This document shows positions 1-13,801 of a stretch of 13,801 bases of DNA, piece by piece. The translations under genes were made by a program, and so were the position numbers. The stretch is taken from positions 1 through 13,801 of IMG/VR virus record IMGVR_UViG_3300045988_042395. One strand, 5' to 3'. The DNA comes from a virus. The stretch's first letter is position 1, and each line of letters opens with the position of its first letter. The notes beneath the pieces are model-generated. The model saw only the letters and a list, made by a program, of their open reading frames with translations. It was not told the origin of the DNA and searched no databases.

Positions 1-180
1 GATAATAGCAGATTGCACAAAAATTTATTCCCCAACAGCCAAAACTTTGTGCAAAATGTCAATAGACACAAAATATAGTGCCCATACCCCTCAGGGTAGG
101 GGAGTACAGCAATTTTTACAATGTAAATAGCAATTTTTACAATGTAAATAGCAATTTTTACAATGTAAATAGCAACATAT
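1..180. repeat. Left inverted terminal repeat (180 bp)
   Basis: Bases 1-180 equal the reverse complement of 13643-13801 base for base, except that the left copy has one additional 21-bp unit. Degenerate similarity continues to about 185. Confidence 0.95.
108..175. repeat. 21-bp tandem repeat AGCAATTTTTACAATGTAAAT, 3 full copies plus 5 bp
   Basis: Exact copies lie at 108-128, 129-149 and 150-170, then AGCAA at 171-175. Each unit contains the 13-bp palindrome TTTACA-A-TGTAAA (115-127, 136-148, 157-169). Confidence 0.95.
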
Positions 181-185
181 GCAAT
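115..185 (+). promoter_or_regulatory. Phased array of SigA/sigma70-like promoters created by the 21-bp repeat
   Basis: The first pair is -35 TTTACA (115-120), a 17-nt spacer and -10 TACAAT (138-143). The same pair recurs at 136-141 / 159-164. A weaker third pair has TTTACA at 157-162 and TGCAAT at 180-185. All read inward toward the first gene. Confidence 0.5.
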
Positions 186-193
186 TTAGTGTA

Positions 194-202
194 TGGTATA
201 AT
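194..202 (+). promoter_or_regulatory. Extended -10 element TGGTATAAT
   Basis: TGnTATAAT lies at 194-202, just inside the unique region and 77 nt upstream of the first ATG. No good -35 is present; the 174-179 position reads AACATA. Confidence 0.4.
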
Positions 203-278
203 ATAGACAATGAAAAAGAAGTCATGATTAAAATCACTTTAACCGGTGATAACATTACTCTTGATGGAGGTGCTATAA

Positions 279-551
279 ATGGAACTGCGTAAATTCATTA
301 TTGAGATTCACCCGGATGGCAAATTGACGTGGTGCGAGTACGAGGACCCGAAAGACGCTAATCGAGCCGCACTAGATCGAGCGTGGTTCGATGGTTATCG
401 ACAAGTCCTCGAGCATTGTGACGAGCAGGTAAAATATTTAAAGAAGTTTAAAGATATTTGCCTCTCATCTAAACTTATGTACTATGGAGCTAAATCTGTC
501 CAAGAGGCGTTATTATCTTCTTACTGTGAATACATTAAAGGGAAACACTAA
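279..551 (+). CDS. Hypothetical early protein (90 aa)
   Basis: The ORF is preceded by GGAGG (266-270), 8 nt before the ATG. It is the first gene after the left-end promoters. I recognise no motif. Confidence 0.7.
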   Translation: MELRKFIIEIHPDGKLTWCEYEDPKDANRAALDRAWFDGYRQVLEHCDEQVKYLKKFKDICLSSKLMYYGAKSVQEALLSSYCEYIKGKH

Positions 552-557
552 GTCGAA

Positions 558-596
558 ACGGCCTCCGGGCCGTCTACCGGGACCGCCCGCCCGGTA
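558..596 (+). promoter_or_regulatory. Twin GC-rich hairpins in the intergenic region
   Basis: Hairpin 1 pairs ACGGCC (558-563) with GGCCGT (568-573) around the loop TCCG. Hairpin 2 pairs TACCGGG (575-581) with CCCGGTA (590-596) around an 8-nt loop. No U-tract follows either hairpin. Confidence 0.3.
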
Positions 597-634
597 CTGA
601 TGATGACAGGGCACATAATGAAAGGAGCTATATT

Positions 635-1069
635 ATGTCTGAATCAATGATGAAGTTCGAGAACCACGGCGCCATGATGGTGTCCGATGTGATGAATACC
701 GGTGTGGGGTATACCGATATGAACCTCTCTGACCGCTCTGCCGCGGTGGCATTCTACAATGCTACAAGCAACCCCGTCAACAAGCTGAAGGAGCACGTCA
801 ATGAGGTGCTGTCGCTGGTTCATGTGTCCGTGGAGTGCGTGGAGGTCAGCAAGGATGACGTTCCTGAGGGCCGAACGATTGCCCCGCGTGTTGTCCTCCT
901 TACCGATGACGGGCAGTCGTACGCCTGCGTTTCCGTTGGTGTATATCAGTCTTTGAAACGGATGTTTACGCTGCTTGGCACTCCTGATACATGGACGGAA
1001 CCGGTGAAGATCAAACCTGTGCTGATTAGCACCAAAAAAGGACAGGTTTTGTCTTTGAACTTGGTTTAA
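635..1069 (+). CDS. Putative phage ssDNA-binding protein (OB-fold, small-phage SSB-like), 144 aa
   Basis: The RBS AAAGGAG (621-627) lies 7 nt before the ATG. The gene sits in the replication block upstream of the TP and polymerase genes. The sequence pattern (..VHVSVECVEV...PRVVLLTDDGQSYACVSVGVYQSLKRM..) resembles Gram-positive phage SSB families as I remember them. This has not been verified. Confidence 0.4.
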   Translation: MSESMMKFENHGAMMVSDVMNTGVGYTDMNLSDRSAAVAFYNATSNPVNKLKEHVNEVLSLVHVSVECVEVSKDDVPEGRTIAPRVVLLTDDGQSYACVSVGVYQSLKRMFTLLGTPDTWTEPVKIKPVLISTKKGQVLSLNLV

Positions 1070-1077: not shown

Positions 1078-1112
1078 ATGGCCGCCGCACATGCGGCGGC
1101 CATATTTATTAT
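1078..1112 (+). terminator. Rho-independent terminator candidate
   Basis: An 11-bp GC-rich stem pairs ATGGCCGCCGC (1078-1088) with GCGGCGGCCAT (1093-1103) around the loop ACAT. It is followed by ATTTATTAT. Confidence 0.6.
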
Positions 1113-1124: not shown

Positions 1125-1346
1125 ATGAAAAGTAAAGATAACAGAGCATCTTTGCTAAACTGCGGCGATTCCATGATATATCTTGCCTCTGCCATTGTAT
1201 ATAGTGGAGTCACAACCAATGATGTTAAGTTTTTCCGCTCTGAATGGGCCAAAATTATTTTCAACGGATTGGGCATTGAAGCGGATCCTCTGGACTGGTA
1301 TTATATGATTTTAGATAGAAAGGGGGGGCAAGAAACATGGCAGTAG
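1125..1346 (+). CDS. Hypothetical early protein (73 aa)
   Basis: GGAGG (1114-1118) lies 6 nt before the ATG. The ORF overlaps the next ORF by 10 nt. I recognise no motif. Confidence 0.6.
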   Translation: MKSKDNRASLLNCGDSMIYLASAIVYSGVTTNDVKFFRSEWAKIIFNGLGIEADPLDWYYMILDRKGGQETWQ

Positions 1347-1936
1347 GCGCAGCTAAAGCAAGTGCAACCCTTAAATACAGCTCCGAGCTGTACACCCCCT
1401 ATGCGTTGGAATCGTGGCCTGATAAGCAGATGCGCAAAGAATATACACGACTGCGCGATATTGCGCAGAAACGTATTAGGCGCCTATCAAAAGACCCCAT
1501 TAGCGGCACAAGCGACATTTATAAAGAATTCGCCGGAGGTTTCCCAACCCTAAAGGCAATGCGCGGAGACCGTAAAGCATTGGAGCAGGCGTTAGCGGAT
1601 GTAGCGCGTTTTGTGCGCTCTAAAGGTTCCACAGTAGGCGGTGCCCGTGAGGAATTCAAGCAAAAAATGAAAGTTGGGGGTATTGATGTAGCCGACGTGC
1701 CCGAGGATCAGTACACGGCCCTGTCGGAATGGTGGGAGATCGTGAAAGCATCGGGCGTATACTATTATCCGTCCGATCAGCCGGTTATATACTGGCGCGA
1801 GAGAGGAGGCTACAATGTCAGTATTGACGATTTTGTAAAGTGGCAGCAAGGCGAGGTTAACTATGGTAAAGAATGGGACTACAGCGGCAGCAGCAGTTCC
1901 GCCGACCTGCGCGGAGGTTTTGGAGGCGGCTTGTAA
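1337..1936 (+). CDS. Candidate terminal protein (TP) for protein-primed replication, 199 aa
   Basis: The ORF lies immediately upstream of the protein-primed polymerase ORF and overlaps it, as the TP gene does in phi29. It has a basic N-terminal segment (KEYTRLRDIAQKRIRRLSK) reminiscent of the phi29 TP N-terminus, and a Ser-rich, acidic and aromatic C-terminus. The call rests on position and composition only. Confidence 0.5.
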   Translation: MAVGAAKASATLKYSSELYTPYALESWPDKQMRKEYTRLRDIAQKRIRRLSKDPISGTSDIYKEFAGGFPTLKAMRGDRKALEQALADVARFVRSKGSTVGGAREEFKQKMKVGGIDVADVPEDQYTALSEWWEIVKASGVYYYPSDQPVIYWRERGGYNVSIDDFVKWQQGEVNYGKEWDYSGSSSSADLRGGFGGGL

Positions 1937-3953
1937 TTATAACCCTGTCCCGTGGCTTATGGAGCATTTAGACCGCAAACACACAAAAGGCAAGAAACGC
2001 AAAACGAACAAGAGGCGCTTATATGTGAATATGCCGTGTGCGTTTGATATTGAGACTAGCCGAGTATGTGTTGACGCGGACGACAATCCCCACACCATAA
2101 TGTATATTTGGCAGTGTCAACTCGGTCTGGATATTACCATTATTGGTAGGACTTGGGACGAGTGGCTGAACTTCACGGGAGCAATCAGCGACTATTTGCA
2201 AGCAAACAGCGGTCCGCAGGGTGACTGGTTTCTGTGTATGTACGTTCACAATCTTGCACATGAATTTCAATATTTATCGGGTATACTGGATTTTGGGCCC
2301 GGGGATGTATTCGCCAGCAAACCGCGCAGGGTCTTAAAATGTGATAACCGCGCTATAGAATACAGATGCAGTATGCGACACAGCAATTTATCCCTTGATG
2401 CTTGGGGCAAACAGCTTGGTGCCCCTCATGCCAAACTGACCGGAGCACTTGATTACTCAAAGGTCCGATACCCATGGACTCCCTTAACGTCTACAGAATT
2501 AGCGTATTGTATCAATGATGTCAGGTGTATTGTGGAGTGCCTGTTAATCGAGATGCACCGTGATGGCGATGACCTGTACACTCTGCCATTGACGCGCACC
2601 GGGTATGTCAGGCGAATGGCTCGAGAGGCTATGTACGAATGGGGCATTAAAAGGGTCAGGCGCCTGTTGCCATCATGGGACCTATACCAGATGCTGCGGG
2701 AAGCGTTCCGAGGAGGTGACACGCACGCAAACCGCTATTATGTAGGGTTGCATTTGGAAAACGTGGGTTCCGTGGATATGTCGAGTGCATACCCAGCCGT
2801 ACAATGTGAATGTTATTTTCCTATGACTCCATTTAGGAAGGAACCTGCCACCGTAGGGCGTTTGATGCAATGTATGAGGCACGGCAAGGCTTGCTTGATG
2901 CGCTTGCAAGTAAAAGGTTTGCGCCAACGCTTTAAGTGGTGGGGGTTTCCGTATATCCCCCTTGCAAAGGTTCGACATTGTGAAGGATACATTAACGACA
3001 ATGGCCGTCTGCTGTCTGCTGAACATTTCGAGATTACCATAACTGATATAGATTTTAGAATCATTGCTAAAGAGTATGACTGGGACGCCCTTAATGTTCG
3101 GGATCTGTACACGTCCGATTATGGCAAACTGCCACCGCCCTTGACGGATTGTATAAAAGAGAGTTATACCGGCAAGACATCCCTTAAAGGGGTGGCCGGT
3201 CAAAATTTGTATTATGTTAAGGCTAAGAACGATCTCAATAGCTATTACGGCATGACCGCCCAGGACCCCTTGCAGCTGGACACACTTTTTGACGAGGACG
3301 ACCCCGACAATCTTTGGAGCGAGTGTACCGATGACCCGGAGGGCAGTTATAACGAGCATCGCCCCCACTTGTTTTTGCCTTACCAATGGGGCGTCTGGAC
3401 AACGGCCCACACCCGCAAGCGCCTAAAAATAGCGCAATGGGCCGCGGGCAAGAATGGGGTTTACTGCGACACTGACAGCGTCAAATACATGGGCAATATT
3501 GATTTGTCGGACTTTAACAAAGCCGTAAAGCAGCTCGCAAAAGACAATGGCGCTTGTGCCACCGACCCAAAAGGCAACACTCATTATATGGGTGTGTACG
3601 AGCAGGAGCACAGCTATGCGGAGTTTATGACATGGGGCGCAAAAAAATACGCGACTACCTATAGAAAGGGAGGGCCGATCACTACTACCATAGCAGGAGT
3701 TAGCAAACGGAAAGGCGGTTTGGAGCTGGCCCTGTGGGGCGGTTTTGATGTATTTAAGCCCGGGTTTACTTTTTGTTTGGCTGCAGGAAATCAGGTTATT
3801 TATAATGATCGCCCCAATGTGCCCGATTTTGTGGTAGATGGACATACAGTCCACATCACCCGCAATTTGTGTATTTGTGATAATACCTATACACTCGGCA
3901 TCACGGACGAGTATGCAAAGATACTCGGGTATAAGATCATGGAGGTTATATAA
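1863..3953 (+). CDS. Family-B DNA polymerase, protein-primed type
   Basis: The recognisable motifs are ExoI FDIETS, ExoII-like HNLAHEF, ExoIII YCINDV, motif A DMSSAYP, motif B KNDLNSYYG, motif C YCDTDS and a KKY motif. The ATG at 1863 has GAGG 6 nt upstream. An alternative ATG at 1959, downstream of the TP stop, has no RBS. Confidence 0.93.
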   Translation: MVKNGTTAAAAVPPTCAEVLEAACNYNPVPWLMEHLDRKHTKGKKRKTNKRRLYVNMPCAFDIETSRVCVDADDNPHTIMYIWQCQLGLDITIIGRTWDEWLNFTGAISDYLQANSGPQGDWFLCMYVHNLAHEFQYLSGILDFGPGDVFASKPRRVLKCDNRAIEYRCSMRHSNLSLDAWGKQLGAPHAKLTGALDYSKVRYPWTPLTSTELAYCINDVRCIVECLLIEMHRDGDDLYTLPLTRTGYVRRMAREAMYEWGIKRVRRLLPSWDLYQMLREAFRGGDTHANRYYVGLHLENVGSVDMSSAYPAVQCECYFPMTPFRKEPATVGRLMQCMRHGKACLMRLQVKGLRQRFKWWGFPYIPLAKVRHCEGYINDNGRLLSAEHFEITITDIDFRIIAKEYDWDALNVRDLYTSDYGKLPPPLTDCIKESYTGKTSLKGVAGQNLYYVKAKNDLNSYYGMTAQDPLQLDTLFDEDDPDNLWSECTDDPEGSYNEHRPHLFLPYQWGVWTTAHTRKRLKIAQWAAGKNGVYCDTDSVKYMGNIDLSDFNKAVKQLAKDNGACATDPKGNTHYMGVYEQEHSYAEFMTWGAKKYATTYRKGGPITTTIAGVSKRKGGLELALWGGFDVFKPGFTFCLAAGNQVIYNDRPNVPDFVVDGHTVHITRNLCICDNTYTLGITDEYAKILGYKIMEVI

Positions 3954-4378
3954 TGAACAACGCATTGTTTACAAGCAAAACGGGACTGTGGGAAACTCCA
4001 CAAGAATTTTTCGACAAGCTAAACCGGGAGTTTGATTTCACATTAGACGCTTGTGCGACACCAGAGAATGCCAAGTGTATAAACTTTTATTCTCCAGAGC
4101 AAGACGGCCTGAGCATGCCGTGGAATGGGCGCGTTTGGTGCAATCCGCCGTATGGCAGACAGGTTGGCCAGTGGGTCAAAAAAGCGTATATGAGCGCACA
4201 GACCGGAGCCCTTGTGGTGATGCTGCTGCCCGCTAGAACCGACACTGCATGGTTCCACGATTATATTTACCGGAGAGCGGAGATCCGTTTTGTTAGAGGA
4301 AGACTAAAGTTTGGAGGAAGCAGAAACAGTGCTCCATTCCCTTCCATGGTATGTGTTTTTAGGGGGGGACAAAGATGA
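3953..4378 (+). CDS. Phage Dam-type DNA N6-adenine methyltransferase (141 aa)
   Basis: The protein carries the NPPY catalytic motif (WCNPPYG). Its N-terminal WETPQEFFDKLNREFDFTLDACAT and its C-terminal ARTDTAWFH...GRLKF match the phage N-6-adenine-methyltransferase family. The start overlaps the polymerase stop (TAATG). Confidence 0.88.
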   Translation: MNNALFTSKTGLWETPQEFFDKLNREFDFTLDACATPENAKCINFYSPEQDGLSMPWNGRVWCNPPYGRQVGQWVKKAYMSAQTGALVVMLLPARTDTAWFHDYIYRRAEIRFVRGRLKFGGSRNSAPFPSMVCVFRGGQR

Positions 4379-5436
4379 TTAAACTTTACACCGAAGATGG
4401 TTGGCCTAATTTCTCCGAGGATGACGGCATCTTGTCCACCGGAGCATCTATTATTTTTATATGGGGCGGACGTGGTACCGGCAAGACCTACGGAGCGCTA
4501 AAGCACGTGCACCAGACCGAGGAAGAATTTCTATATCTGCGCCGCACGCCGCAGCAGGCGGAACTTATTTGCGCCTCGCCCAGTATGTGGCCGTGGTCTC
4601 CATTGAATGACGATTTGCAAACGCATTACGCCCCGTTCAAATTGCCCAAAATAGCAGGACTGTATGAAGTGGGCAATGCAGGAGCCTACACGGATACAGG
4701 AGCGCCCATAAAACCGGCCAAGATGTCGGGCGTAGTGGGTAGTGTGGTGACTCTTGCTCGCACCCGTGGTTTTTCAAGCCCCCATACCAATATAATTATT
4801 TTGGACGAGTATCAGAAAGAAGAGTCCGACTATTACCGGCGGGGTGAGGGCGTGGGCCTTGCCAACATTTATGAAACGGTCAACCGTAACCGCGAATTGC
4901 AAGGGCAAAAGCCCCTGACGCTGTTATGTATGTCAAACGCTGTTGGCATGGCGAACCCCTATTATATGCAGTGGGAAATTACAGATACGGTTGAAAAGAT
5001 GATCGGCAAGAAAGAGCGCGTCAAGCTGTTGGCCGATAAAGGGATTCTTTTGATTGATCTAGTGGACAGCCCTATTGCAAAAGAGAAAGCCAATACGGCC
5101 CTCTATAGGTCCATGACCGGAACGGACTTTTATAGGTCCGCTATTGAAAACCAGTACAGCGCCGAGGAGAAAAGTCTTGTTGTATCCCGGCCCCTCCGGG
5201 AATACTACCCACTTGTTCAAATCGGGCGGTGCTGCATCTATGAGCACAAGAGTAAACCCCTCTACTATGTGTGTCGGCATCGGTCCGGCGAGATGCCCAC
5301 ATACGGCACCGGCGATTATGAGCGTAAACGATTCAGGGCCGCGTATGGGTATATCTGGCCCGCGTATTTGCAGAGGCAAATTGAGTTTGAGCGATACTCG
5401 GATGAAATTTTCTTTCGTGAGTATTGTGGTACTTGA
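4375..5436 (+). CDS. DNA encapsidation (packaging) ATPase, phi29 gp16-like
   Basis: It has Walker A GGRGTGKT and Walker B IIILDEY. The segment LLCMSNAVGMANPYY resembles the gp16 segment CICLSNAVSVVNPYF as I remember it. An ATGA start/stop overlap joins it to the methyltransferase gene. Confidence 0.9.
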   Translation: MIKLYTEDGWPNFSEDDGILSTGASIIFIWGGRGTGKTYGALKHVHQTEEEFLYLRRTPQQAELICASPSMWPWSPLNDDLQTHYAPFKLPKIAGLYEVGNAGAYTDTGAPIKPAKMSGVVGSVVTLARTRGFSSPHTNIIILDEYQKEESDYYRRGEGVGLANIYETVNRNRELQGQKPLTLLCMSNAVGMANPYYMQWEITDTVEKMIGKKERVKLLADKGILLIDLVDSPIAKEKANTALYRSMTGTDFYRSAIENQYSAEEKSLVVSRPLREYYPLVQIGRCCIYEHKSKPLYYVCRHRSGEMPTYGTGDYERKRFRAAYGYIWPAYLQRQIEFERYSDEIFFREYCGT

Positions 5437-5461: not shown

Positions 5462-5467
5462 AAAGTT

Positions 5468-5537: not shown

Positions 5538-5567
5538 TACTTGTATCTGTATGGGAGGTGATGTTAT

Positions 5568-7801: not shown

Positions 7802-9202
7802 ATGCAAGCTATATTTTACCAGTTTGCAAAGCGCACAAACAGCACAAAGCGGCCCAGCAGTGGGAAGGAGTTCGGAATTGACCTTAAAGCCCCTTGTAAC
7901 ATCATTGACCCCGAGATCAAGATTGCAACACAAAGTGACCCCACCGGGTACAATTATTGCTACCTTCCCACATTCAGCCGGTATTACTGGGTTAAAAATT
8001 GGACATATGCCAACGGTCTCTGGGTGGCCTCGCTGACTGTTGATACGCTTGCAAGTTACCGAGATCAGATTGGGTCTGCTACCGAATATGTGGTTAGATC
8101 GTCGGCCCAGTATGATGGCACAATTTCAGATAGCCTTTACCCGGCAAAATCTACCGTTCAGAGTGTCACAAATGCTTTTCAAGGCGGTTTTGCTGAAACG
8201 ATCAGCGGAGGTTTCTTTGTTATTGGATTTATAGCCAAAGCCGCTAACTCCATTGGAGCTGTCACTTATGTAGTAATGACTCCTGGAAACGCTAAAAAAC
8301 TCTCCGCCAAATTACTAACCGATGTATCGTACCTTAGTATTGACAATACAGAGATTAGTGACAGTTTAACAAAGGTGCTTTTCAATCCTTATCAGTATAT
8401 CGTAAGTTGTAACTACTTTCCATTTAGCATTGCCGAACTCGCCGCACATTTACCGCTTGTTAATAGTGTAGATGTTGGTTGGTGGTCAGTAGACATTCCG
8501 TGTTGGATTTTGGGAGAAGATAATAACAATCTAACAAAATCGGTAAGTGTGGCTATTCCGAAGCACCCGCAAGCGGCAAATCGTGGAGGGTATTGTAACG
8601 CCTCCCCATACACGGACTATACTATCTTCTTGCAACCATTCGGCGTAATTCCCCTTGATGCCTCCAAATTGTGGGGTGCCGCGACATTATCTATCCAGTA
8701 TGTGACGGACCTTTTCACCGGCGACAGTATCTTGCGCATGTTTACCGATACAAATCAGCTAGTACACGAGACAACCGCAAAACTCGGGGTACCTGTTCAA
8801 CTTTCAAATATTACATTTGATATACCATCGGGCGGCGGACTGCTGCAAACGGGTGTTGCTGCTGCGTTCGGAGGTCTCCAAGCAGCATTATCCGGGGGTT
8901 CTTTTTCAGACGTCGGAAACGGTATTCTAAATGCGGCACAAGCAACCAACGCGGATGTTGCAAGTAAGGGTGCCACAGGGTCTACAATCGCTTTTGATTT
9001 GGTGCCTTATATGGTCGCCCGCTTTAAAATTCTTGTGGATGACAACAATGATGACCATGGGAGGCCCTTATGTCGGCGGGTGCAAATATCCAGTATTCCG
9101 GGGTATATTATGGTTGACGATCCCGACATCGCACTAGCGGCAACCGCAGAAGAAATCGACAGTGTCAAAAGTTATATGAAGAATGGTTTTTTCTATGAGT
9201 AG
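7802..9202 (+). CDS. Tail knob / distal tail tube protein, phi29 gp9-like, 466 aa
   Basis: GGAGG lies 6 nt upstream of the start. The N-terminal pattern (YNYCYLPTFSRYYWVKNW...LTVDTLASYRDQI) parallels the gp9 pattern (SYIMF...KWFYAFV...EIDVLQTWMFDI). A Gly/Ala-rich hydrophobic segment near the C-terminus (GGGLLQTGVAAAFGGLQAALSGG) is analogous to the gp9 membrane-active loop. Confidence 0.65.
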   Translation: MQAIFYQFAKRTNSTKRPSSGKEFGIDLKAPCNIIDPEIKIATQSDPTGYNYCYLPTFSRYYWVKNWTYANGLWVASLTVDTLASYRDQIGSATEYVVRSSAQYDGTISDSLYPAKSTVQSVTNAFQGGFAETISGGFFVIGFIAKAANSIGAVTYVVMTPGNAKKLSAKLLTDVSYLSIDNTEISDSLTKVLFNPYQYIVSCNYFPFSIAELAAHLPLVNSVDVGWWSVDIPCWILGEDNNNLTKSVSVAIPKHPQAANRGGYCNASPYTDYTIFLQPFGVIPLDASKLWGAATLSIQYVTDLFTGDSILRMFTDTNQLVHETTAKLGVPVQLSNITFDIPSGGGLLQTGVAAAFGGLQAALSGGSFSDVGNGILNAAQATNADVASKGATGSTIAFDLVPYMVARFKILVDDNNDDHGRPLCRRVQISSIPGYIMVDDPDIALAATAEEIDSVKSYMKNGFFYE

Positions 9203-9214: not shown

Positions 9215-9748
9215 ATGGCAGTATATAAACAGTGTATTACTGATGTGTCACCAATCAGAGTGACAGCCGGTTATCCGGCGTACCCGGACGGTAGTCCCCA
9301 CCGGGGTATTGACACAGTACACGGTAATCATAAAGCGTACGCGCCCGAGGCGGGCGTTGTGGTCGTGGCGCAGCACTGGAATGGCAGTACCTCGGGCGAT
9401 CAGTCGTGGGGCAATATGATTAAAGTCAGAATGGCCAACGGCACCACATGGCGAGCTGCACACTTTGCCTCACAGATTTGGAACGTTGGCGACACGATCA
9501 CAAAGGGTCAGTTTATTGGCACACAGGGCCGAACGGGATACGCAACGGGCGTTCACACGCATTGGGAGTACGCCGATGCAGCCGGAAACCTGCGAGACCC
9601 TTCCAGCATTATCAGAATCCCGAATCAGGTCGGCACATGGGATGTAGAATGGGACTCCGGCGGAGGCCCGGGTCCCGGGCCGTGGCCAACCGGTAAGTTG
9701 CCGGTGTGGTTACTGTTTAAAATGGCAAAAGGAGGTCGTCTGTTATGA
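9215..9748 (+). CDS. M23 (LytM-type) peptidoglycan endopeptidase, 177 aa
   Basis: It has the HxxxD motif (HRGID) and the HxH motif (HTHWE), with the intervening VGDTITKGQFIGTQGRTGYATG typical of M23. AGGAGG lies 8 nt upstream of the start. The C-terminus has a GGGPGPGP linker and an amphipathic tail. Confidence 0.88.
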   Translation: MAVYKQCITDVSPIRVTAGYPAYPDGSPHRGIDTVHGNHKAYAPEAGVVVVAQHWNGSTSGDQSWGNMIKVRMANGTTWRAAHFASQIWNVGDTITKGQFIGTQGRTGYATGVHTHWEYADAAGNLRDPSSIIRIPNQVGTWDVEWDSGGGPGPGPWPTGKLPVWLLFKMAKGGRLL

Positions 9749-10686
9749 GCGCCCCCTACAGCTATGAGCAAATCAACGCTCATGTGTCCCCGGTGACTCC
9801 CTCCGTAATGCACACCAAGGGCAACAGCTTATCCTATTATTTCCGCAAATATCTGTTTCTTGAAGCTGTGTCTATGGTCCGGTGGACGCTCCCCGACACT
9901 TGGCCCAGTAACCGCTTGCAATATCTTGTATTCGGTTCCGGAGGTGTTACGGTGTTCGATACTGACCGCTACGGCCTCGTTTATGACCGAATGGGACTGA
10001 CCGGCATTAACATTTTTTACAATCCCACACACTCCATCATTGCAAACCCTTTTATCAAAGGGTCCCCCTATTTGCAAATCGGGAAGCAGTGCGAGATCAT
10101 CAATTTACAGCCCGATTACCGCGGCATGGTGGATATTGTGGCCTATTATGGGGATATGATGGCCCTTGCTGCCCAGACCATCCAAAGCAATTTAATTAAC
10201 AGCCGGTTGGCGTATGTGTTCGCCTCTGGTAACAAGGCCGGTGCAGAATCTTTTAAAAAGATGTTCGACCAGATCATGCAGGGTGACCCCGCCGTTTTTG
10301 TGGATTCCTCTTTGCTCAAAGCGCCCAAAAATGGGGCATCCGGGCAAGCCCCATGGATGTACTTTGCGACAGACCTTAAAGGGAACTTTATCACCAACGA
10401 ACTGCTGACAGCCCTTAAAACCATAAAAGCCCTGTTTGATACGGAAGTCGGGATCCCTAACACCAACACAAGCAAGAAAGAGCGGATGTTGACCGATGAA
10501 GTCAACTCTAACAACGTTGAGACAGCCGCCAAAGCGTCGCTATGGTTGGACAGCTTACAGCGTGGGTGTGAGCGGGTGCACAAGCTCTTTGGGATTGACA
10601 AATCTACTTTATGGGTCGATTGGCGTTTTCCGCCCGATACTGGGACGCAGGAGGTAAACAACGATGCACGCAACATTGAGCTTTAA
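9745..10686 (+). CDS. Head-tail connector (portal / upper collar), phi29 gp10-like, 313 aa
   Basis: KKERMLTDEVNSNN resembles the gp10 segment KKERMVTDEVSSND as I remember it. The size is close to the 309 aa of gp10. An ATGA overlap joins it to the M23 gene, and GGAGG lies 9 nt upstream of the start. Confidence 0.85.
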   Translation: MSAPYSYEQINAHVSPVTPSVMHTKGNSLSYYFRKYLFLEAVSMVRWTLPDTWPSNRLQYLVFGSGGVTVFDTDRYGLVYDRMGLTGINIFYNPTHSIIANPFIKGSPYLQIGKQCEIINLQPDYRGMVDIVAYYGDMMALAAQTIQSNLINSRLAYVFASGNKAGAESFKKMFDQIMQGDPAVFVDSSLLKAPKNGASGQAPWMYFATDLKGNFITNELLTALKTIKALFDTEVGIPNTNTSKKERMLTDEVNSNNVETAAKASLWLDSLQRGCERVHKLFGIDKSTLWVDWRFPPDTGTQEVNNDARNIEL

Positions 10687-11353
10687 CGGCCTGTTGGCAG
10701 GGTACCCGAAACTGTTCGATGACTTGAAAGTCCCTGACAGTGTATCTAAAGAAACTGTCTGCAATCATTTACTGTTTGATACGCTGGAATTGGAAGTATT
10801 ATACGCGGATGGCCCCGCTATGCGCAGAGCGCTAGGCGTCTATTCTGAAACCATGCTCCCGAGCTGGACCCGGTACGCTAAGGCGCTGGGCCTTGAATAC
10901 GATGCTTTGGCATCCGATGACAGAACCAGAACCACCGACCACGCAGGAACCAGCGGCGGCACAGTCAAACGCACAAACGGCGTGAAGGGCACAACTACAC
11001 GAGAGCCGAACCTGACCACCACCGGCCAGAATACAGGCAGTGACAGCACTACCCGGGCTGTTACGGGGTTTGACAGCGGGGCCTTGCAAACCGCCGAAAA
11101 GAGTACAACGGACCTTGGAACTGGAAACACCATTACCAGCAGCGGCACGGACACAACCACCACCAATCAGACAACCACCGATAACAACATCTCAGAGTTA
11201 CACGATGGCTACAAAGATACCGTGACCGAGAAGGGCCGGGCAGGGCGAGACCCGCAAGACCTTATTGCCAAAGAGTTGACCCTTGCAATGGAAAATGCAG
11301 TTCATAAAATCGTTACGGACATCCGGGCGAACTTTTGTTTGCTGGTATATTAA
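10664..11353 (+). CDS. Putative lower collar protein (gp11-like), 229 aa
   Basis: The gene lies between the connector and appendage genes, as in phi29. GGAGG (10651-10655) lies 8 nt upstream of the start. A Thr/Gly/Ser/Asn-rich central region is consistent with the long beta-hairpin tube of lower-collar proteins. Confidence 0.5.
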   Translation: MHATLSFNGLLAGYPKLFDDLKVPDSVSKETVCNHLLFDTLELEVLYADGPAMRRALGVYSETMLPSWTRYAKALGLEYDALASDDRTRTTDHAGTSGGTVKRTNGVKGTTTREPNLTTTGQNTGSDSTTRAVTGFDSGALQTAEKSTTDLGTGNTITSSGTDTTTTNQTTTDNNISELHDGYKDTVTEKGRAGRDPQDLIAKELTLAMENAVHKIVTDIRANFCLLVY

Positions 11354-11365
11354 GGAGATGTGATT

Positions 11366-13606
11366 ATGAGTATCAATCCTATTCACAGAGCACCCTACAC
11401 CAATTTCCATGATCTCAATCTTGATTGGATTATGGATAAGTTAAACGAGTTCAATACCAAACTGACGAATTTCGTCAGCCTAGCAACGATCAAGTACGCA
11501 AACCCGATTCAGTGGGACATCACAAGCCAGTATGAGGCAAACACCGTTGTTGTGGACAGCAACGGCAACGCCTATCTTTCCGTGCAGCCGGTGCCGTCCG
11601 GTGTTTCTCTGGATCGCACCGAGTTCTGGACCAAAATCGGCAACTTCGATGTGCTTTGGGCCGATGTCAAAAAGGCCATTACTCCCACCGATGAGGGCCA
11701 CAGCCCCACCGCGACAGCTGCAAGAGCTATCAACGATCTTGTCTGGGTCAATGGGGCGCTTGTGCGTGTCACAAAAACAATGATCGCCGGTGATGCTTAT
11801 GTACCCGGCTCTAACTGCGTTAGCAGCTCCACAAATGAAGTCCTGCACTACCTTATCACTGCGTTTAATGAGGGCTTGAGCGCCGAGAAAACGGCCCGAG
11901 AGAACGCCGACACCCAGCTTCAGACGGCTATCGGCGCGGAGCAGACGGCCCGGGAGAACGCCGACACACAGCTTCAGACGGCTATCGGCGCGGAGCAGAC
12001 GGCCCGGGAGAACGCCGACACACAGCTACAGAAGGCGATCGACAATGAGACACAGGCGCGTATTACGGCAGATGAAAAATTACAAAAACAGATTGAGAAT
12101 GTATCCTCTACTGCATTTGCTAACGTTAAGGACTACGGCGCAGCAGGCACCGGCATAGCGGATGATACGGCGGCTATTAAAAAGGCTATTGCGTCCGGTC
12201 TTCCACTGCTTTTTCCGGATGGTACATACAGTATTACGCAGGACGTCACACTGACCGGTGCATACTTTGCGCACAAAGCAATGGTGATTGCGTACGGATG
12301 TACAGTAACGATCACCGCACCGATTGCCGGTGCTAGCTGTCATTTCCGCAAAACAAACAGCGGCACGATCAAGATGACAGATAGCGTTGTACTGGTTGAC
12401 TGGTTTAACTATGAAGGCGATTTGGGATCTGCTCTCAGCGATTATCTCTTAGGTTATGAGGGTACAGTAAAGTTTGGTCGTCCTGCTACATATGCTGGAC
12501 TAGGTACTGATACTACTTACGTTGTAAGTAATAATATTTATCTTCAACCGCACACAACATACGATTTGCAGGGGTGTGTTATTAAGCTTACTACTGCCAA
12601 CAGCAGATTCATTTTTAACGGTAGTAATACCGCCCATGTGGAGCGCACTATCTTTCGCAATGGCGTTATTATCGGTGCAACCGATGATGTAGACGCGGCT
12701 TTTACTTCGGATTATTCTGAGCGATTCTTCATTGAGGATATGTTTATAATCGGTTGCCGAAAAGTGCTAGAATGTGCGCATACTATCAATATACAGGTGC
12801 GCAATATTATACATGATATTGCACTTGAAACCTCTAAGCCTATTACAAGTTATCATTTAGTAGAGAGTTCCACGGGTGCGACTGGTATCTCCGGCAACGC
12901 CTCTTTCCGCGCAGAAAACTGCATTTCCAGCCTTGGCAGTGCTACCGGGGATCGATGGATGTTCCTTGCTGATTCTTCCAACGATATTCGAGATATTTAT
13001 ATCAGCAACTGCGAATGCAGCAACTCAAATGGCATATGGATTAACGCCTCCGATACACCATCAACGGTCTGGGACATTCTGATTGATGGTTTCATTGCCG
13101 ACCAGTGCCCGCAGACCGGTATTTACTTAACAAATTGTCTTTACGGCGCAGTACATATTCTAAACAGCTATAGTAACGCACCGTCATACGGCATCCGACT
13201 GGTAAAATCAACGGCTGTTATCAATACATGTCAGTTCCTTGCTACGGCACCCATGAATGGTATTTACATCGAGGGGGGGTGTAGGGCGGTTTCTATCAGT
13301 CATTGCACTTTTATCGATGTATCGCGTCCGATTCAAATATCAGACGGCATAGGGACCCTCGTAGACGATATTACGGTAGTGCGCAATACCCTACATGGAG
13401 AAAACGCCCCAGCTGTATTTGTCGGTTCGGAGTGGTGCTTTATTACCCGACTTTCTGGATGGAATATAACACCCGCCTACACAGCAGGTGTTCAGTTTGG
13501 GGCAGGCAACTGTACGTTTGGTTTTATTAACGGCTTTGACCCTACAAAGTATTCAAAACTAGGCGAACCTACAAACATTCAGCAAATTTCCACTGCTGCT
13601 ATTTAA
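11366..13606 (+). CDS. Tail appendage / tailspike with coiled-coil repeats and a right-handed beta-helix (pectate-lyase-3-like) domain
   Basis: AAGGAG (11352-11357) lies 8 nt before the ATG at 11366; the GTG at 11360 in the ORF track is too close to this RBS. NVKDYGAAGTGIADDTAAIKKAI is the hallmark N-terminal motif of the pectate_lyase_3 / tailspike beta-helix. The position matches that of phi29 gp12. Confidence 0.85.
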   Translation: MSINPIHRAPYTNFHDLNLDWIMDKLNEFNTKLTNFVSLATIKYANPIQWDITSQYEANTVVVDSNGNAYLSVQPVPSGVSLDRTEFWTKIGNFDVLWADVKKAITPTDEGHSPTATAARAINDLVWVNGALVRVTKTMIAGDAYVPGSNCVSSSTNEVLHYLITAFNEGLSAEKTARENADTQLQTAIGAEQTARENADTQLQTAIGAEQTARENADTQLQKAIDNETQARITADEKLQKQIENVSSTAFANVKDYGAAGTGIADDTAAIKKAIASGLPLLFPDGTYSITQDVTLTGAYFAHKAMVIAYGCTVTITAPIAGASCHFRKTNSGTIKMTDSVVLVDWFNYEGDLGSALSDYLLGYEGTVKFGRPATYAGLGTDTTYVVSNNIYLQPHTTYDLQGCVIKLTTANSRFIFNGSNTAHVERTIFRNGVIIGATDDVDAAFTSDYSERFFIEDMFIIGCRKVLECAHTINIQVRNIIHDIALETSKPITSYHLVESSTGATGISGNASFRAENCISSLGSATGDRWMFLADSSNDIRDIYISNCECSNSNGIWINASDTPSTVWDILIDGFIADQCPQTGIYLTNCLYGAVHILNSYSNAPSYGIRLVKSTAVINTCQFLATAPMNGIYIEGGCRAVSISHCTFIDVSRPIQISDGIGTLVDDITVVRNTLHGENAPAVFVGSEWCFITRLSGWNITPAYTAGVQFGAGNCTFGFINGFDPTKYSKLGEPTNIQQISTAAI
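11879..12041 (+). repeat. 54-bp tandem repeat, about 2.8 copies, in the tail appendage gene
   Basis: Copies lie at 11891-11944 and 11945-11998, differing at 2 synonymous positions, with a diverging third copy from 11999. They encode TARENADTQLQTAIGAEQ three times. Confidence 0.9.
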
Positions 13607-13612
13607 CCACAA

Positions 13613-13640
13613 CAGCCCCTCGATAGAGGGGCTGTTTATT
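13613..13640 (+). terminator. Rho-independent terminator at the end of the late operon
   Basis: A 9-bp stem pairs CAGCCCCTC (13613-13621) with GAGGGGCTG (13626-13634) around the loop GATA. It is followed by TTTATT, 7 nt after the stop codon. Confidence 0.75.
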
Positions 13641-13687
13641 GTATATGTTGCTATTTACATTGTAAAAATTGCTATTTACATTGTAAA
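13638..13687 (-). promoter_or_regulatory. Inward-facing promoter pair in the right ITR (minus strand)
   Basis: Read on the minus strand, TTTACA-N17-TACAAT occurs twice. One pair has -35 at 13682-13687 and -10 at 13659-13664. The other has -35 at 13661-13666 and -10 at 13638-13643. They point into the 3' end of the tail gene. Confidence 0.4.
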
Positions 13688-13801
13688 AATTGCTGTACTC
13701 CCCTACCCTGAGGGGTATGGGCACTATATTTTGTGTCTATTGACATTTTGCACAAAGTTTTGGCTGTTGGGGAATAAATTTTTGTGCAATCTGCTATTAT
13801 C
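13643..13801. repeat. Right inverted terminal repeat (159 bp)
   Basis: It is the exact reverse complement of the left ITR minus one 21-bp unit, and it runs to the last base of the window. Confidence 0.95.
13648..13694. repeat. 21-bp tandem repeat, 2 full copies plus 5 bp (right ITR)
   Basis: This is the same unit as at 108-175 in reverse complement, with palindromes at 13654-13666 and 13675-13687. Confidence 0.95.

What the first reader, a model, noticed from the sequence alone, without database searches (positions are those of the whole stretch)
1..13801. Complete, very small, fully unidirectional phi29-like phage genome
The ITRs reach both ends of the window. The interior holds a full replication, packaging, lysis and virion gene set in about 17 genes. 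Described protein-primed podophages that I know of (phi29, Cp-1, 44AHJD/P68 and Clostridium phiCP-type phages) are roughly 16-22 kb, and phi29 has divergent early and late operons. Here the genome is 13.8 kb and every gene is on one strand. The packaging ATPase sits at the end of the early block, and the M23 hydrolase lies between the knob and connector genes. I see no head fibre, lysogeny genes or tRNA. This may represent a minimal lineage of the group.
Basis: partly seen in the sequence, partly recalled or inferred. Interest (0 to 1): 0.7.

Follow-up and report, generated by a model that had tools for sequence, protein, structure and literature searches.

The report
Small gut phi29-like phage genome
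This is a nearly complete 13.8-kb genome of an uncultured phi29-like phage that is common in the human gut. Its small one-strand layout is already known from relatives, but it also carries a self-cleaving ribozyme and a small RNA built like a miniature of phi29's DNA-packaging RNA.

Summary
The window has 164-185-bp inverted terminal repeats reaching both ends, 16 ORFs all on the + strand (94% coding) and no tRNA. Pfam or PHROG hits identify a protein-primed PolB, phi29-type SSB, gp16 ATPase, phi29 capsid, gp10 connector, M23 peptidase, holin and a gp12-like spike. Phi29-like phages of 10-14 kb are already described: Astrithrvirus 11.6 kb, Vibrio K58 g2 10.4 kb, Amedibacillus AD70P2 12.3 kb, plus 2,115 catalogued sequences. 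AD70P2 and several faecal contigs share the same one-strand order. IMG/VR holds at least 189 contigs of this lineage. The closest fetched is 92% identical over 94% of the window, and GenBank MT836263 is 87% identical over 67%. Relatives' contig ends pile up 6 nt beyond the window (GGGACA), so it is complete to about 6 nt per end. Two things are new. (1) A type II hammerhead lies at 551-615, and its core positions 3 and 8 covary across relatives (C-G, U-A, U-G). (2) A promoter-led 70-nt three-way-junction RNA lies at 5468-5537, after the ATPase gene. It is conserved in six lineages, has the helix order of phi29 prohead RNA, and has a covarying bulge/loop complementarity. It is a candidate mini-pRNA, untested.

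The parts
1..185 (.). Left inverted terminal repeat. Relatives carry 6 more nt, GGGACA, outside position 1.
108..175 (+). 3.2 tandem copies of a 21-bp unit inside the ITR. Each junction reads TTTACA-17-TACAAT, a promoter-like site pointing inward. The right arm (13648-13694) has 2.2 copies.
194..202 (+). TGGTATAAT, an extended -10 box just inside the ITR. Candidate early promoter (read by eye).
279..551 (+). ORF of 90 aa, function unknown. Present in 52/52 relatives at about 60% identity.
551..615 (+). Type II hammerhead ribozyme. Stem III 558-573, predicted cleavage after C574, stem I 575-581/590-596, core CUGAUGA 597-603, stem II GAC 605-607 with GUC 552-554, pseudoknot GCCC 585-588 with GGGC 609-612.
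635..1069 (+). phi29-type single-stranded DNA-binding protein (p5-like).
1078..1103 (+). Intrinsic-terminator-like hairpin (11 bp, 9 GC) after the SSB gene.
1125..1346 (+). ORF of 73 aa, function unknown, core gene of the lineage.
1337..1936 (+). ORF of 199 aa directly upstream of, and overlapping, the polymerase gene. Putative terminal protein, by position and size only.
1863..3953 (+). [quoted passage not shown]
3953..4378 (+). Dam-type N6-adenine methyltransferase. Accessory gene, present in 8/52 relatives.
4375..5436 (+). gp16-type DNA packaging ATPase.
5433..5461 (+). Conserved sigma-70-type promoter TTGACT-17-TATATT. The -10 box ends 6 nt before the RNA below.
5468..5537 (+). Three-way-junction RNA (candidate mini prohead RNA). 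P1 5468-5476/5529-5537, P2a 5478-5481/5504-5507, bulge 5482-5488, P2b 5489-5493/5499-5503 with loop CAGAA, P3 5509-5513/5520-5524 with loop CAGCCA. Bulge GGC is complementary to loop GCC.
5568..5903 (+). Holin (Phage_holin_4_1). One of at least two alternative holin types in the lineage (15/52).
5906..6139 (+). ORF of 77 aa, function unknown, core gene.
6093..6485 (+). PQPV-repeat protein just before the capsid gene (12-bp repeat x7.6 at 6203-6293). Putative scaffolding protein, by position. The start may be TTG 6126.
6487..7752 (+). phi29-type major capsid protein.
7758..7781 (+). Terminator-like hairpin (10 bp, 9 GC) after the capsid gene.
7802..9202 (+). ORF of 466 aa, putative tail knob (p9-like). 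Residues 26-100 match astrithr gp09. The middle part (about 8000-9000) varies between relatives.
9215..9748 (+). M23 peptidoglycan endopeptidase. Comparable to the M23 domain of phi29 gp13 (that domain composition is from my own knowledge). It is the only cell-wall hydrolase detected.
9745..10686 (+). Connector / upper collar (gp10).
10664..11353 (+). ORF of 229 aa, putative lower collar (p11-like). Assigned by position and a weak hhalign match.
11360..13606 (+). Tail spike / appendage with a pectate-lyase-type beta-helix (gp12-like start). A 54-bp repeat x3 lies at 11880-12041. The C-terminal two thirds vary between relatives.
13611..13636 (+). Terminator-like hairpin ending the single transcription direction.
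13638..13801 (.). Right inverted terminal repeat.

Best explanation
The window is the essentially complete linear genome of an uncultured, apparently strictly lytic phi29-like podophage. It lacks about 6 nt at each tip. The lineage is abundant in human gut metagenomes.

Replication (inferred from the gene set): a protein-primed PolB starts at both ITR tips, whose lineage consensus is 5'-GGGACA. The upstream 199-aa protein would serve as terminal protein, helped by a phi29-type SSB.

Expression runs left to right on one strand (partly inferred). An early promoter at the left ITR drives orf90. A type II hammerhead then cuts the transcript, predicted at 574/575, just ahead of the SSB gene. Under this model the SSB message would be bounded by the ribozyme's stem I hairpin at its 5' end and the hairpin at 1078-1103 at its 3' end. 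Read-through supplies TP, Pol, Dam and ATPase.

A second, conserved promoter (5433-5461) starts the late transcript: holin, scaffold, capsid, terminator-like hairpin, knob, M23, connector, collar, spike, terminator. The two internal hairpins would act as attenuators that give more SSB and capsid than downstream products.

The late transcript begins with a 70-nt three-way-junction RNA. I propose it is a shortened homologue of phi29 prohead RNA: it would form a ring by bulge/loop pairing and dock the short gp16-type ATPase onto the connector.

Shown: the ITRs, the gene identities, the one-strand order, the lineage-wide conservation, the RNA structures and their covariation. Inferred: the terminal protein, promoter and terminator use, ribozyme activity, and the packaging role of the RNA.
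For: Genome identity. Pfam hits above the curated cut-offs for PolB_2, Podovirus_Gp16, Phi29_MCP, Phage_connector, Phi29_Phage_SSB, M23 and holin. PHROG hits for DNA polymerase at 9e-40 and upper collar at 1.5e-26. ITR confirmed.

Defined ends. Among 152 distinct related contigs, 92 ends reach the terminal motif. Of these, 34 stop exactly at GGGACA and only 8 run further. Some of those 8 carry Illumina adapter remnants fused to the end, and the rest look like assembly artefacts such as fold-backs. No related contig exceeds 14.3 kb, apart from one 18,010-bp contig (L090) with two inverted copies of the RNA motif, probably chimeric.

No prophage copy. Of 185,579 genomes, only two whole-contig copies turned up, both binned into MAGs.

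One-strand layout. It holds in 52/52 near-complete relatives. It is shared with AD70P2, MT836155, MT836115 and MT836587.

Hammerhead. 45.1 bits against a gathering score of 37. The element is present in 67 matches among 81 related loci (some contigs were fetched twice). Core positions 3/8 read U-A 42, C-G 18, U-G 7 and never C-A. The loop I/3'-tail pseudoknot is as described for type II.

Three-way-junction RNA.
- Within the window lineage, 96% of cells are paired against 21-47% when slid. P1 and P2b show both-sided changes.
- A covariance model built from this lineage alone finds the RNA as the top hit in MT836115 (E 1.7e-4), MT835998 (0.07) and MT836587 (0.24).
- The same topology follows a -10-like box (a full -35/-10 pair where read) in six lineages.
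- In the MT836115 family, 12 pairs show both-sided changes, with 0/500 shuffles reaching that.
- Bulge/P3-loop complementarity has a different sequence in each lineage; combined p = 1.8e-4. One compensatory change was seen: AAUCA/UGAUU to AACCA/UGGUU.
- The helix order and the promoter-to-helix distance equal those of phi29 pRNA (PMC5066667).
- A tRNA-Gln starts 4-5 nt after the RNA in the MT836587 lineage.
Against: - There are no reads, no isolate and no known host.
- The putative terminal protein has no detectable similarity to phi29 TP.
- The knob and lower-collar assignments are weak: hhalign probability 4% and 27%, an AF2 model at pLDDT 34, and no PDB sequence match.
- Promoters and terminators are consensus matches only.
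- Hammerhead stem II is only 3 bp. Most relatives carry the non-canonical U3-A8 core, and three lineage members checked (L002, L083, L084) were not detected by Rfam at its gathering score.
- The RNA does not match Rfam Phage_pRNA, even in a 131-nt search at E <= 10.
- Its closing helix is 9 bp, against about 26 bp for phi29 helix A, and it lacks domain II.
- In the window no clean terminator follows it, so it may stay attached to the late mRNA.
- Bulge and loop are invariant within the window lineage (GGC/GCC, 3 bp).
- I chose the element boundaries used for the complementarity test by eye.
- The pairing could be an intramolecular pseudoknot.
Confidence: 0.85

Rival explanations
1. The three-way-junction RNA is not a packaging RNA. 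It is a cis-acting 5' leader of the late operon. It could be a 5'-terminal stabiliser, or a terminator/attenuator (P1 plus a U-rich tract) that holds back holin and structural genes until an early phage factor allows read-through. The bulge/loop pairing would then be an intramolecular pseudoknot.
For: The RNA always sits between a strong promoter and the first late gene, and in MT835998 it travels with the late module rather than with the ATPase gene. P1 is followed by U-rich tracts in several lineages. In the window the transcript appears to continue into the holin gene 30 nt later. In the MT836115 family the segment just before the late Shine-Dalgarno site is complementary to the interior of the RNA. 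There is no Rfam pRNA match.
Against: A simple hairpin would do for stabilisation or termination. Instead, a three-way junction with the exact phi29 pRNA helix order and a lineage-specific bulge/loop complementarity is kept across lineages whose polymerases are only 28-46% identical. Sequence conservation between lineages is minimal, which is unlike ligand-binding leaders. A tRNA gene follows directly in one lineage, which implies processing into a free RNA. My one concrete cis model, an anti-Shine-Dalgarno helix, failed its test.
Confidence: 0.35
2. One reading: this is a previously unrecognised, minimal lineage of protein-primed podophages whose size and one-strand layout set it apart from all described relatives.
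For: No isolate of this lineage exists, and no ICTV taxon covers it. The closest classified phage has only 35% polymerase and 28% capsid identity. The nearest fetched genome is below the 95% species level.
Against: Smaller described relatives exist, at 10.4-12.3 kb. The same gene order on one strand occurs in the isolated phage AD70P2 and in several GenBank faecal contigs. The lineage is already in GenBank (MT836263), in IMG/VR (at least 189 contigs) and probably in the Evseev 2024 catalogue.
Confidence: 0.08
3. The window is not a whole linear genome. It is a fragment of a larger element, a circular or permuted genome, or an assembly artefact whose ITRs were created by the assembler.
For: Some related contigs do show assembler artefacts at their ends: L007 has 56 extra nt on both ends, L026 has a fold-back, and L090 is an 18-kb chimera. 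The window's first two bases deviate from the lineage consensus.
Against: ITR-bounded contigs of 12.7-14.3 kb recur in many samples. Their ends coincide to the nucleotide, and some carry adapter remnants fused to the end. The gene set is complete and collinear with isolated phages. No longer contig was seen among 714 protein clusters.
Confidence: 0.03
4. It is another kind of protein-primed element, such as a tectivirus or a linear plasmid, rather than a tailed phage.
For: It has ITRs, a protein-primed PolB and a size of about 14 kb, as in PRD1-like tectiviruses (the tectivirus comparison is from my own knowledge).
Against: The capsid is a phi29-type HK97-fold protein. The connector, gp16 ATPase and gp12-like spike are all tailed-phage parts. 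No double-jelly-roll capsid was found.
Confidence: 0.01

Closest known systems
Bacillus phage phi29 (Salasmaviridae; EU771092)
   Same: Protein-primed PolB with a gene immediately upstream in the terminal-protein position. p5-type SSB, gp16-type ATPase without a nuclease-size C-terminus, phi29-type capsid, gp10 connector and a gp12-like appendage start. Late gene order scaffold-capsid-(knob)-connector-collar-appendage. No tRNA. About 94% coding.
   Different: 13.8 kb against 19.3 kb. ITR 164-185 bp against 6 bp. All genes are on one strand, whereas phi29 has two leftward early operons flanking a rightward late operon. The ATPase and holin lie before the structural genes, not after. No head fibre, p4, p6 or separate endolysin was recognised. 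M23 is a stand-alone 177-aa protein placed between knob and connector. Polymerase identity is about 24%.
Amedibacillus phages AD70P2/AD70P3 (isolated; 12.3 kb; NCBI: Guelinviridae)
   Same: The same collinear order, (TP)-Pol-small ORFs-ATPase-intergenic RNA-scaffold-capsid-knob-connector-collar-spike, with 14 of 15 genes on one strand. It has a 124-nt gap after the ATPase gene holding a promoter and a three-way-junction RNA with a 5-bp bulge/loop complementarity.
   Different: 26.7% GC against 50%. Pol 35% and capsid 28% identity. No M23, Dam or hammerhead was detected. One small gene lies on the opposite strand.
GenBank MT836263 and the IMG/VR contigs of the same lineage; probably 'Virus sp. 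ctxAI8', MCP cluster 13 of Evseev et al. 2024
   Same: Same genus-level lineage: capsid 94-97%, Pol 94.5%, same gene order, ITR motif, hammerhead site and RNA. ctxAI8 matches in size (13,382 bp), GC (49.8%) and source.
   Different: The window differs by its accessory Dam gene, its SSB and holin alleles, the middle of the knob and the C-terminus of the spike. Best similarity is 0.87. Identity with ctxAI8 was not checked by sequence, because the record is not in the collections searched.
Astrithrvirus (Salmonella phages astrithr, assan, Astrid), Pectobacterium DU_PP_III, Acinetobacter Phanie, Vibrio K58 g2
   Same: Small (10.4-11.9 kb) phi29-like genomes with Pol followed by the ATPase, mostly on one strand.
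   Different: Gram-negative hosts. The connector lies before the capsid, the knob is split in two (PMC11476376), and four small genes lie on the other strand. No three-way-junction RNA was found by the model. Pol 32-34% and capsid 23% identity.
phi29 prohead RNA (pRNA; Rfam RF00044)
   Same: Transcribed from its own sigma-70-type promoter, with the 5' end entering the closing helix about 7 nt after the -10 box. Same order: closing helix, helix C, 7-9-nt bulge on the 5' side, hairpin E, hairpin D. The bulge is complementary to the D loop, with lineage-specific sequences. Very low sequence conservation with a conserved fold. Encoded by phages with the short gp16 ATPase (PMC5066667).
   Different: About 70 nt against 174 (120 minimal). 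The closing helix is 9-11 bp without the CCA bulge. There is no domain II. It lies at the head of the late operon rather than near a genome end. There is no hit to the Rfam model. Function is untested.
Type II hammerhead ribozymes of bacteria and (pro)phages (Rfam RF02276; Perreault et al. 2011)
   Same: Score above the gathering threshold, a canonical core in the window, a loop I/3'-tail pseudoknot, and an intergenic position between phage genes.
   Different: Stem II is only 3 bp, with an optional extra U. Most lineage members carry a U3-A8 (or U3-G8) core instead of C3-G8, and the three members checked with Rfam fall below its gathering score.

Membership tests
phi29-like phages (hallmark set p2, p8, p9, p10, p11, p16 of Evseev et al. 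2024) | [quoted passage not shown] | tested here: met
   Pfam DNA_pol_B_2 at 28.4 bits (cut-off 25.8). PHROG 1907 at E 9e-40 over residues 45-687. tblastn to Bacillus phi29-like polymerases at E 1e-8.
phi29-like phages (hallmark set p2, p8, p9, p10, p11, p16 of Evseev et al. 2024) | phi29-type major capsid protein (p8) | tested here: met
   Pfam Phi29_MCP at 66.3 bits (cut-off 27), aligned over residues 29-390.
phi29-like phages (hallmark set p2, p8, p9, p10, p11, p16 of Evseev et al. 2024) | Connector / upper collar (p10) | tested here: met
   Pfam Phage_connector at 61.2 bits (cut-off 25.6). PHROG 2038 at E 1.5e-26.
phi29-like phages (hallmark set p2, p8, p9, p10, p11, p16 of Evseev et al. 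2024) | gp16-type packaging ATPase (p16) | tested here: met
   Pfam Podovirus_Gp16 at 54 bits (cut-off 25). PHROG 2150 at E 1.3e-24.
phi29-like phages (hallmark set p2, p8, p9, p10, p11, p16 of Evseev et al. 2024) | Tail knob (p9) | tested here: inconclusive
   The 466-aa ORF lies in the p9 position. Its residues 26-100 match astrithr gp09 (E 7e-7), which PMC11476376 calls p9-N-like. hhalign against phi29 gp9 aligns only 46 C-terminal columns at 4% probability. There are no Pfam, PHROG or PDB sequence hits. The AF2 model is unusable.
phi29-like phages (hallmark set p2, p8, p9, p10, p11, p16 of Evseev et al. 2024) | Lower collar (p11) | tested here: inconclusive
   The 229-aa ORF lies in the p11 position. 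hhalign against phi29 gp11 aligns 32 columns at E 6.6e-4 and 27% probability. There are no family hits.
phi29-like phages (replication mode) | Linear genome with inverted terminal repeats and defined ends | tested here: met
   ITR of 164-185 bp. Thirty-four independent contig ends coincide at GGGACA, and adapter remnants are fused to ends.
phi29-like phages (replication mode) | Terminal protein covalently bound to the 5' ends | not testable with these tools
   A 199-aa ORF lies upstream of the polymerase, as in phi29, astrithr and AD70P2, but it has no sequence match to Phi-29_GP3. This needs protease-dependent end accessibility or mass spectrometry.
ICTV families Salasmaviridae / Guelinviridae / Rountreeviridae / Madridviridae, genus Astrithrvirus | Genome or protein similarity at family or genus level to classified members | tested here: not met
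   The only megablast hit in 50,697 phage records is the unclassified MT836263. The best classified relative, AD70P2, has Pol 35% and capsid 28% identity. Astrithrvirus has 32-33% and 23%. Salasmaviridae have about 24%. No gene-sharing network was run.
Prohead RNA (pRNA, Rfam RF00044) | Match to the curated covariance model | tested here: not met
   No hit at E <= 1 on the whole window, nor at E <= 10 on the 131-nt and 141-nt stretches.
Prohead RNA (pRNA, Rfam RF00044) | Secondary-structure order: closing helix A, helix C, CE bulge-loop, hairpin E, hairpin D at a three-way junction | tested here: met
   The window RNA reads P1/P2a/bulge/P2b/P3, supported by covariation. The phi29 pRNA was read and folded for comparison.
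Prohead RNA (pRNA, Rfam RF00044) | CE-loop/D-loop Watson-Crick complementarity that changes sequence between phages | tested here: met
   The pairs are GGC/GCC, GCUA/UAGC, GUCG/CGAC, AAUCA/UGAUU, UCC/GGA and UAUCC/GGAUA. Combined shuffle p = 1.8e-4. One compensatory U-A to C-G change was seen. Whether the pairing is between molecules is not testable here.
Prohead RNA (pRNA, Rfam RF00044) | Long helix A (nt 1-28/92-117) with CCA bulge that carries the ATPase; domain II | tested here: not met
   P1 is 9 bp in the window and 6-11 bp in the other lineages. Nothing comparable to domain II follows.
Prohead RNA (pRNA, Rfam RF00044) | Binds the prohead/connector and is required for DNA packaging | not testable with these tools
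   Needs in-vitro packaging or prohead pull-down. AD70P2 is a cultured system that carries the RNA.
Hammerhead ribozyme type II (Rfam RF02276) | Score at or above the curated gathering score, with the full model matched | tested here: met
   45.1 bits against 37, E 1.1e-6, model positions 1-66.
Hammerhead ribozyme type II (Rfam RF02276) | Conserved catalytic core (CUGANGA ... GAAA, cleavage after GUH), with C3-G8 pairing kept | tested here: met
   The window has CUGAUGA, GAAA and GUC. Relatives read C-G 18, U-A 42, U-G 7 and C-A 0. That C3 and G8 pair, and that U3-A8 retains activity, is from my own knowledge of hammerhead biochemistry, not from a paper read here.
Hammerhead ribozyme type II (Rfam RF02276) | Pseudoknot between loop I and the tail 3' of stem II | tested here: met
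   GCCC 585-588 pairs with GGGC 609-612. AGGG is conserved in all 67 copies. The feature is described in PMC3088659.
Hammerhead ribozyme type II (Rfam RF02276) | Self-cleavage | not testable with these tools
   Needs in-vitro transcription of 540-625. The 3-bp stem II is a concern.

The most novel reading that the evidence does not exclude
The 70-nt three-way-junction RNA at 5468-5537 is a miniature prohead RNA. It is conserved behind its own promoter in at least six lineages of small gut phi29-like phages, including the cultured Amedibacillus phage AD70P2. This would be the first pRNA outside the Bacillus phi29 group. It would mean that an RNA ring in the packaging motor is an ancestral, widespread feature of phi29-like phages with short gp16 ATPases, and that a helix A of only about 10 bp can suffice.
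Probability: 0.4. Interest if true: 0.8.

Novelty: new member of a known kind. Interest (0 to 1): 0.55.

Why it matters
As a genome it adds one more species to an abundant but uncultured, unclassified gut lineage, which has modest value. The two RNAs matter more.

pRNA is treated in the literature as unique to Bacillus phi29 relatives (PMC5066667, PMC11476376). How other phi29-like phages dock their short ATPase onto the connector is an open question. A conserved pRNA-shaped RNA beside the ATPase and late genes is present in a cultured phage, so the question becomes directly testable. It would also offer much smaller natural three-way-junction scaffolds for RNA nanotechnology.

The hammerhead family gives a natural C3-G8 / U3-A8 / U3-G8 series. 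It also shows that the current Rfam model misses U3-A8 members: the three checked were not detected at the gathering score.

Tried and rejected
1. Anti-Shine-Dalgarno idea. The U-rich promoter spacer (5438-5450) might pair with the holin Shine-Dalgarno site in read-through early transcripts. Rejected: cognate and non-cognate duplex energies are equal, -6.93 against -6.87 kcal/mol.

2. Structure route to the knob. AF2 on a shallow alignment gave pLDDT 34, so no fold search was run.

3. Profile searches of the 466-aa and 229-aa families against PDB sequences found nothing useful.

4. Host from genomes. The only two genome-collection hits are whole phage contigs binned into Collinsella and Prevotella MAGs, which contradict each other. 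The holin's nearest isolates are Bifidobacterium picoviruses at 31-35% identity. M23 is generic. The host stays unresolved.
   - Gram-positive is suggested by the holin without recognisable spanins, the GGAGG Shine-Dalgarno sites and the M23 peptidase.
   - Evseev et al. suggest Clostridia.

5. IMG/VR scan with the MT836155 ATPase found nothing, and the scan with the AD70P2 ATPase found only one contig.

6. The covariance model with default filters missed most distant copies. The alignment from the unfiltered search contained three false rows, so no second model was built.

7. The RNA motif pattern scan in IMG/VR returned only this lineage.

8. Riboswitch reading of the RNA. Judged unlikely because almost no sequence is conserved between lineages beyond the YNGAA loop.

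Full report
**Observation.** The window is bounded by inverted repeats: 1-164 matches 13638-13801 at 98%. Reading both ends shows that the left arm runs to 185. It differs from the right arm only by one extra copy of a 21-bp unit and one mismatch. Sixteen ORFs with Shine-Dalgarno sites cover 94% of the sequence, all on the + strand. No tRNA is present. GC is about 50%.

**Gene identities.** Curated-threshold Pfam hits and PHROG hits identify most genes:
- a protein-primed PolB
- a Dam methylase
- a gp16-type ATPase
- a phi29-type SSB
- a holin
- a phi29-type capsid
- an M23 peptidase
- a gp10 connector
- a spike whose beta-helix start resembles phi29 gp12

Two labels rest on position and weak similarity only. 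The 'knob' (466 aa) and the lower collar (229 aa) gave hhalign probabilities of 4% and 27%, nothing in PDB sequence searches, and a failed AF2 model. The 466-aa N-terminus does match astrithr gp09, which Evseev et al. describe as p9-N-like. The 199-aa ORF upstream of the polymerase is a terminal-protein candidate by position alone.

**Completeness.** IMG/VR holds at least 189 contigs with a 94-97% identical capsid. Protein searches show 714 clusters of the 466-aa protein, whose longest contigs never exceed 13.9 kb. Among 152 distinct related contigs, 92 ends reach the terminal motif. Of these, 34 stop exactly 6 nt outside window position 1 (GGGACA), 50 are shorter and 8 are longer. The longer ones include Illumina adapter remnants fused to the end; the others look like assembly artefacts such as fold-backs. 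This is what physical DNA ends look like. The window lacks about 6 nt per end, and its first two bases (GA) deviate from the lineage consensus (CG or TG). A scan of 185,579 genomes found no integrated copy. It found only two whole-contig copies binned into a Collinsella MAG and a Prevotella MAG.

**What is known.**
- The only close GenBank phage record is MT836263 (human faeces, unannotated), at 87% over 67%.
- The closest fetched IMG/VR contig is 92% identical over 94% of the window; the median similarity is 0.68. That makes the window a new species in a crowded genus-level group.
- More distant relatives (Pol 28-46%) include other faecal contigs, Amedibacillus phages AD70P2/P3 (12.3 kb), Astrithrvirus (11.6 kb), Acinetobacter Phanie, Pectobacterium DU_PP_III and Vibrio K58 g2 (10.4 kb).
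- Evseev et al. 2024 catalogued 2,115 phi29-related sequences in 30 capsid clusters, many of 12-14 kb from human metagenomes. Their representative 'Virus sp. ctxAI8' (13,382 bp, 49.8% GC) fits this lineage.

The premise that described members are 16-22 kb is therefore outdated, and the genome is not minimal.

The one-strand order Pol-ATPase-capsid-knob-connector is shared by AD70P2, MT836155, MT836115 and MT836587. MT835998 has the replication module inverted. Within the lineage, all 16 proteins' homologues lie on one strand in 52/52 near-complete contigs. The variable parts are the SSB type (31/52), Dam (8/52), the holin type (15/52), the middle of the knob and the spike C-terminus.

**Expression plan (inferred).** Promoter-like TTTACA-17-TACAAT sites are formed by the 21-bp ITR repeats, and an extended -10 box (TGGTATAAT, 194-202) lies just inside the ITR. 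A near-consensus promoter at 5433-5461 is conserved in relatives. Three strong terminator-like hairpins follow the SSB gene, the capsid gene and the last gene. The simplest reading is two promoters and two internal attenuators. These would give more SSB and capsid than downstream products.

**Hammerhead.** Rfam reports a type II hammerhead at 551-615 (45.1 bits, gathering score 37). It starts at the last base of the first ORF's stop codon and ends before the SSB gene's Shine-Dalgarno site. The element is present in 67 matches among 81 related loci. The core heptamer is UUGAUAA in 42, CUGAUGA in 18 and UUGAUGA in 7, and it never combines C3 with A8. This is the pattern expected if positions 3 and 8 pair (my own knowledge of hammerhead structure). 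The loop I GCCC / downstream GGGC pseudoknot matches the type II description of Perreault et al.. Stem II is only 3 bp. Three relatives of the lineage that were checked fall below Rfam's gathering score, and more distant lineages lack the ribozyme. Predicted cleavage at 574/575 would leave the SSB message with a hairpin at each end.

**Three-way-junction RNA.** The 131-nt gap after the ATPase gene holds the conserved promoter, followed 6 nt later by a 70-nt RNA (5468-5537).
- Across 31 distinct lineage sequences, 96% of cells pair, against 21-47% for slid controls. P1 shows CG/AU/UA/UG exchanges at three positions and P2b at two. The interior is invariant.
- No Rfam family matches.
- Five more distant lineages carry an RNA of the same topology behind a -10-like box and just before their late genes. 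In MT835998 it stays with the late module.
- A model built from the window lineage alone recovers three of them as top hits.
- In the MT836115 family (19 sequences), 12 of 25 pairs show both-sided changes, which 0/500 shuffles reach.
- The MT836587 family shows further exchanges, and a tRNA-Gln gene starts 4-5 nt after the RNA.

In every lineage the 7-8-nt bulge before hairpin P2b is complementary to the loop of hairpin P3, with a different sequence each time. The combined shuffle p is 1.8e-4, though I chose the element boundaries by eye. One compensatory change was seen, AAUCA/UGAUU to AACCA/UGGUU.

Reading phi29's own pRNA confirms the same order: helix A, helix C, CE bulge, hairpin E, hairpin D. 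It has the same bulge/loop complementarity (AACC/GGUU) and the same 7-nt distance from the -10 box to the first base of the closing helix (PMC5066667).

The differences are a closing helix of 9-11 bp instead of about 26, no domain II, a location at the head of the late operon, and in the window no clean terminator.

I rate a packaging-RNA function at about 0.4. The main rival is a cis-acting leader or attenuator with an internal pseudoknot. One concrete cis model, an anti-Shine-Dalgarno helix, failed its test.

**Host and lifestyle.** No lysogeny gene or prophage copy was seen. The holin, the lack of recognisable spanins, the stand-alone M23 and the strong GGAGG sites suggest a Gram-positive host. 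The holin's nearest isolates are Bifidobacterium picoviruses at 31-35%, and Evseev et al. suggest Clostridia. The host is unresolved.

**Verdict.** The genome is a new member of a known kind: real, nearly complete, but neither minimal nor unusual in layout. The interest lies in the conserved pRNA-shaped RNA and the covarying hammerhead.

Noticed in passing
window 551-615 (+): Type II hammerhead ribozyme between the first ORF and the SSB gene. Across relatives, core positions 3 and 8 covary (C-G 18, U-A 42, U-G 7, never C-A). Three relatives of the lineage checked with Rfam (L002, L083, L084) were not detected at its gathering score.
   Followed up: yes
window 5433-5567 (+); also L178 1038-1140, L179 5600-5712, L180 5295-5394, L181 8547-8646 (-), and L182 at 5808-5942 of its reverse complement: A promoter is followed by a roughly 70-nt three-way-junction RNA with phi29-pRNA-like helix order and lineage-specific bulge/loop complementarity. 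No Rfam family matches it.
   Followed up: yes
window 108-175 and 13648-13694: A 21-bp tandem unit (AGCAATTTTTACAATGTAAAT, containing the palindrome TTTACAnTGTAAA) occurs 3.2 times in the left ITR and 2.2 times in the right. The copies form inward-pointing promoter-like sites at both ends, although the right end has no gene to drive. This could be an early promoter array, a protein-binding site or part of the replication origin.
   Followed up: partly
window 1-2 and 13800-13801; L079, L051, L007, L026 ends: The window starts GATAATAG where relatives read GGGACA+CGTAATAG. L079 and L051 keep Illumina adapter remnants (…GCTCTTCCGATCT) fused to the phage end. L007 has 56 extra nt on both ends, and L026 has a fold-back.
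   Followed up: yes
L181 (MT836587) 8489-8564 (-) and L265-L344: A tRNA-Gln(UUG) gene starts 4-5 nt after the three-way-junction RNA in this lineage. RNase P processing would therefore release the RNA with a defined 3' end. The window lineage has no tRNA.
   Followed up: partly
L178 (MT835998), whole contig: In this relative (Pol 46% identical), TP, Pol and ATPase lie on the strand opposite to the structural genes, giving convergent modules. This shows that module inversion occurs within the group. The RNA stays with the late module.
   Followed up: partly
L184-L256 (MT836115 family), about 20-35 nt after the RNA: The segment just 5' of the first late gene's Shine-Dalgarno site is complementary to 7-8 nt inside the RNA, and it differs between sublineages (CUUCCGGC/GCCGGAAG, CCCGUGAC/GUCACGGG, CCGUGGC/GCCACGG). 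This hints at an alternative long-range pairing.
   Followed up: no
window 4001-4400, 5568-5903, about 8000-9000, 12000-13600: These are the variable regions of the lineage. The Dam gene is present in 8/52 relatives. There are alternative holin and SSB alleles. The middle of the putative knob protein is poorly conserved, and the spike C-terminus is replaced in most relatives.
   Followed up: partly
window 11880-12041 and 6203-6293: In-frame tandem repeats. A 54-bp unit x3 in the spike N-terminal region encodes the peptide repeat AEQTARENADTQLQTAIG. A 12-bp unit x7.6 in the putative scaffold gene encodes the PQPV repeat.
   Followed up: no
L083 (CALDWI010000036.1) and L084 (CAAGKM010000040.1): Whole phage genomes of this lineage are binned into public MAGs labelled Collinsella and Prevotella. 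This is probably mis-binning, and the labels should not be read as host evidence.
   Followed up: partly
window 1863-1936: The polymerase ORF overlaps the putative terminal-protein ORF by 74 nt in another frame. Homology to other polymerases starts only at residue 54, so the true polymerase start is uncertain.
   Followed up: no
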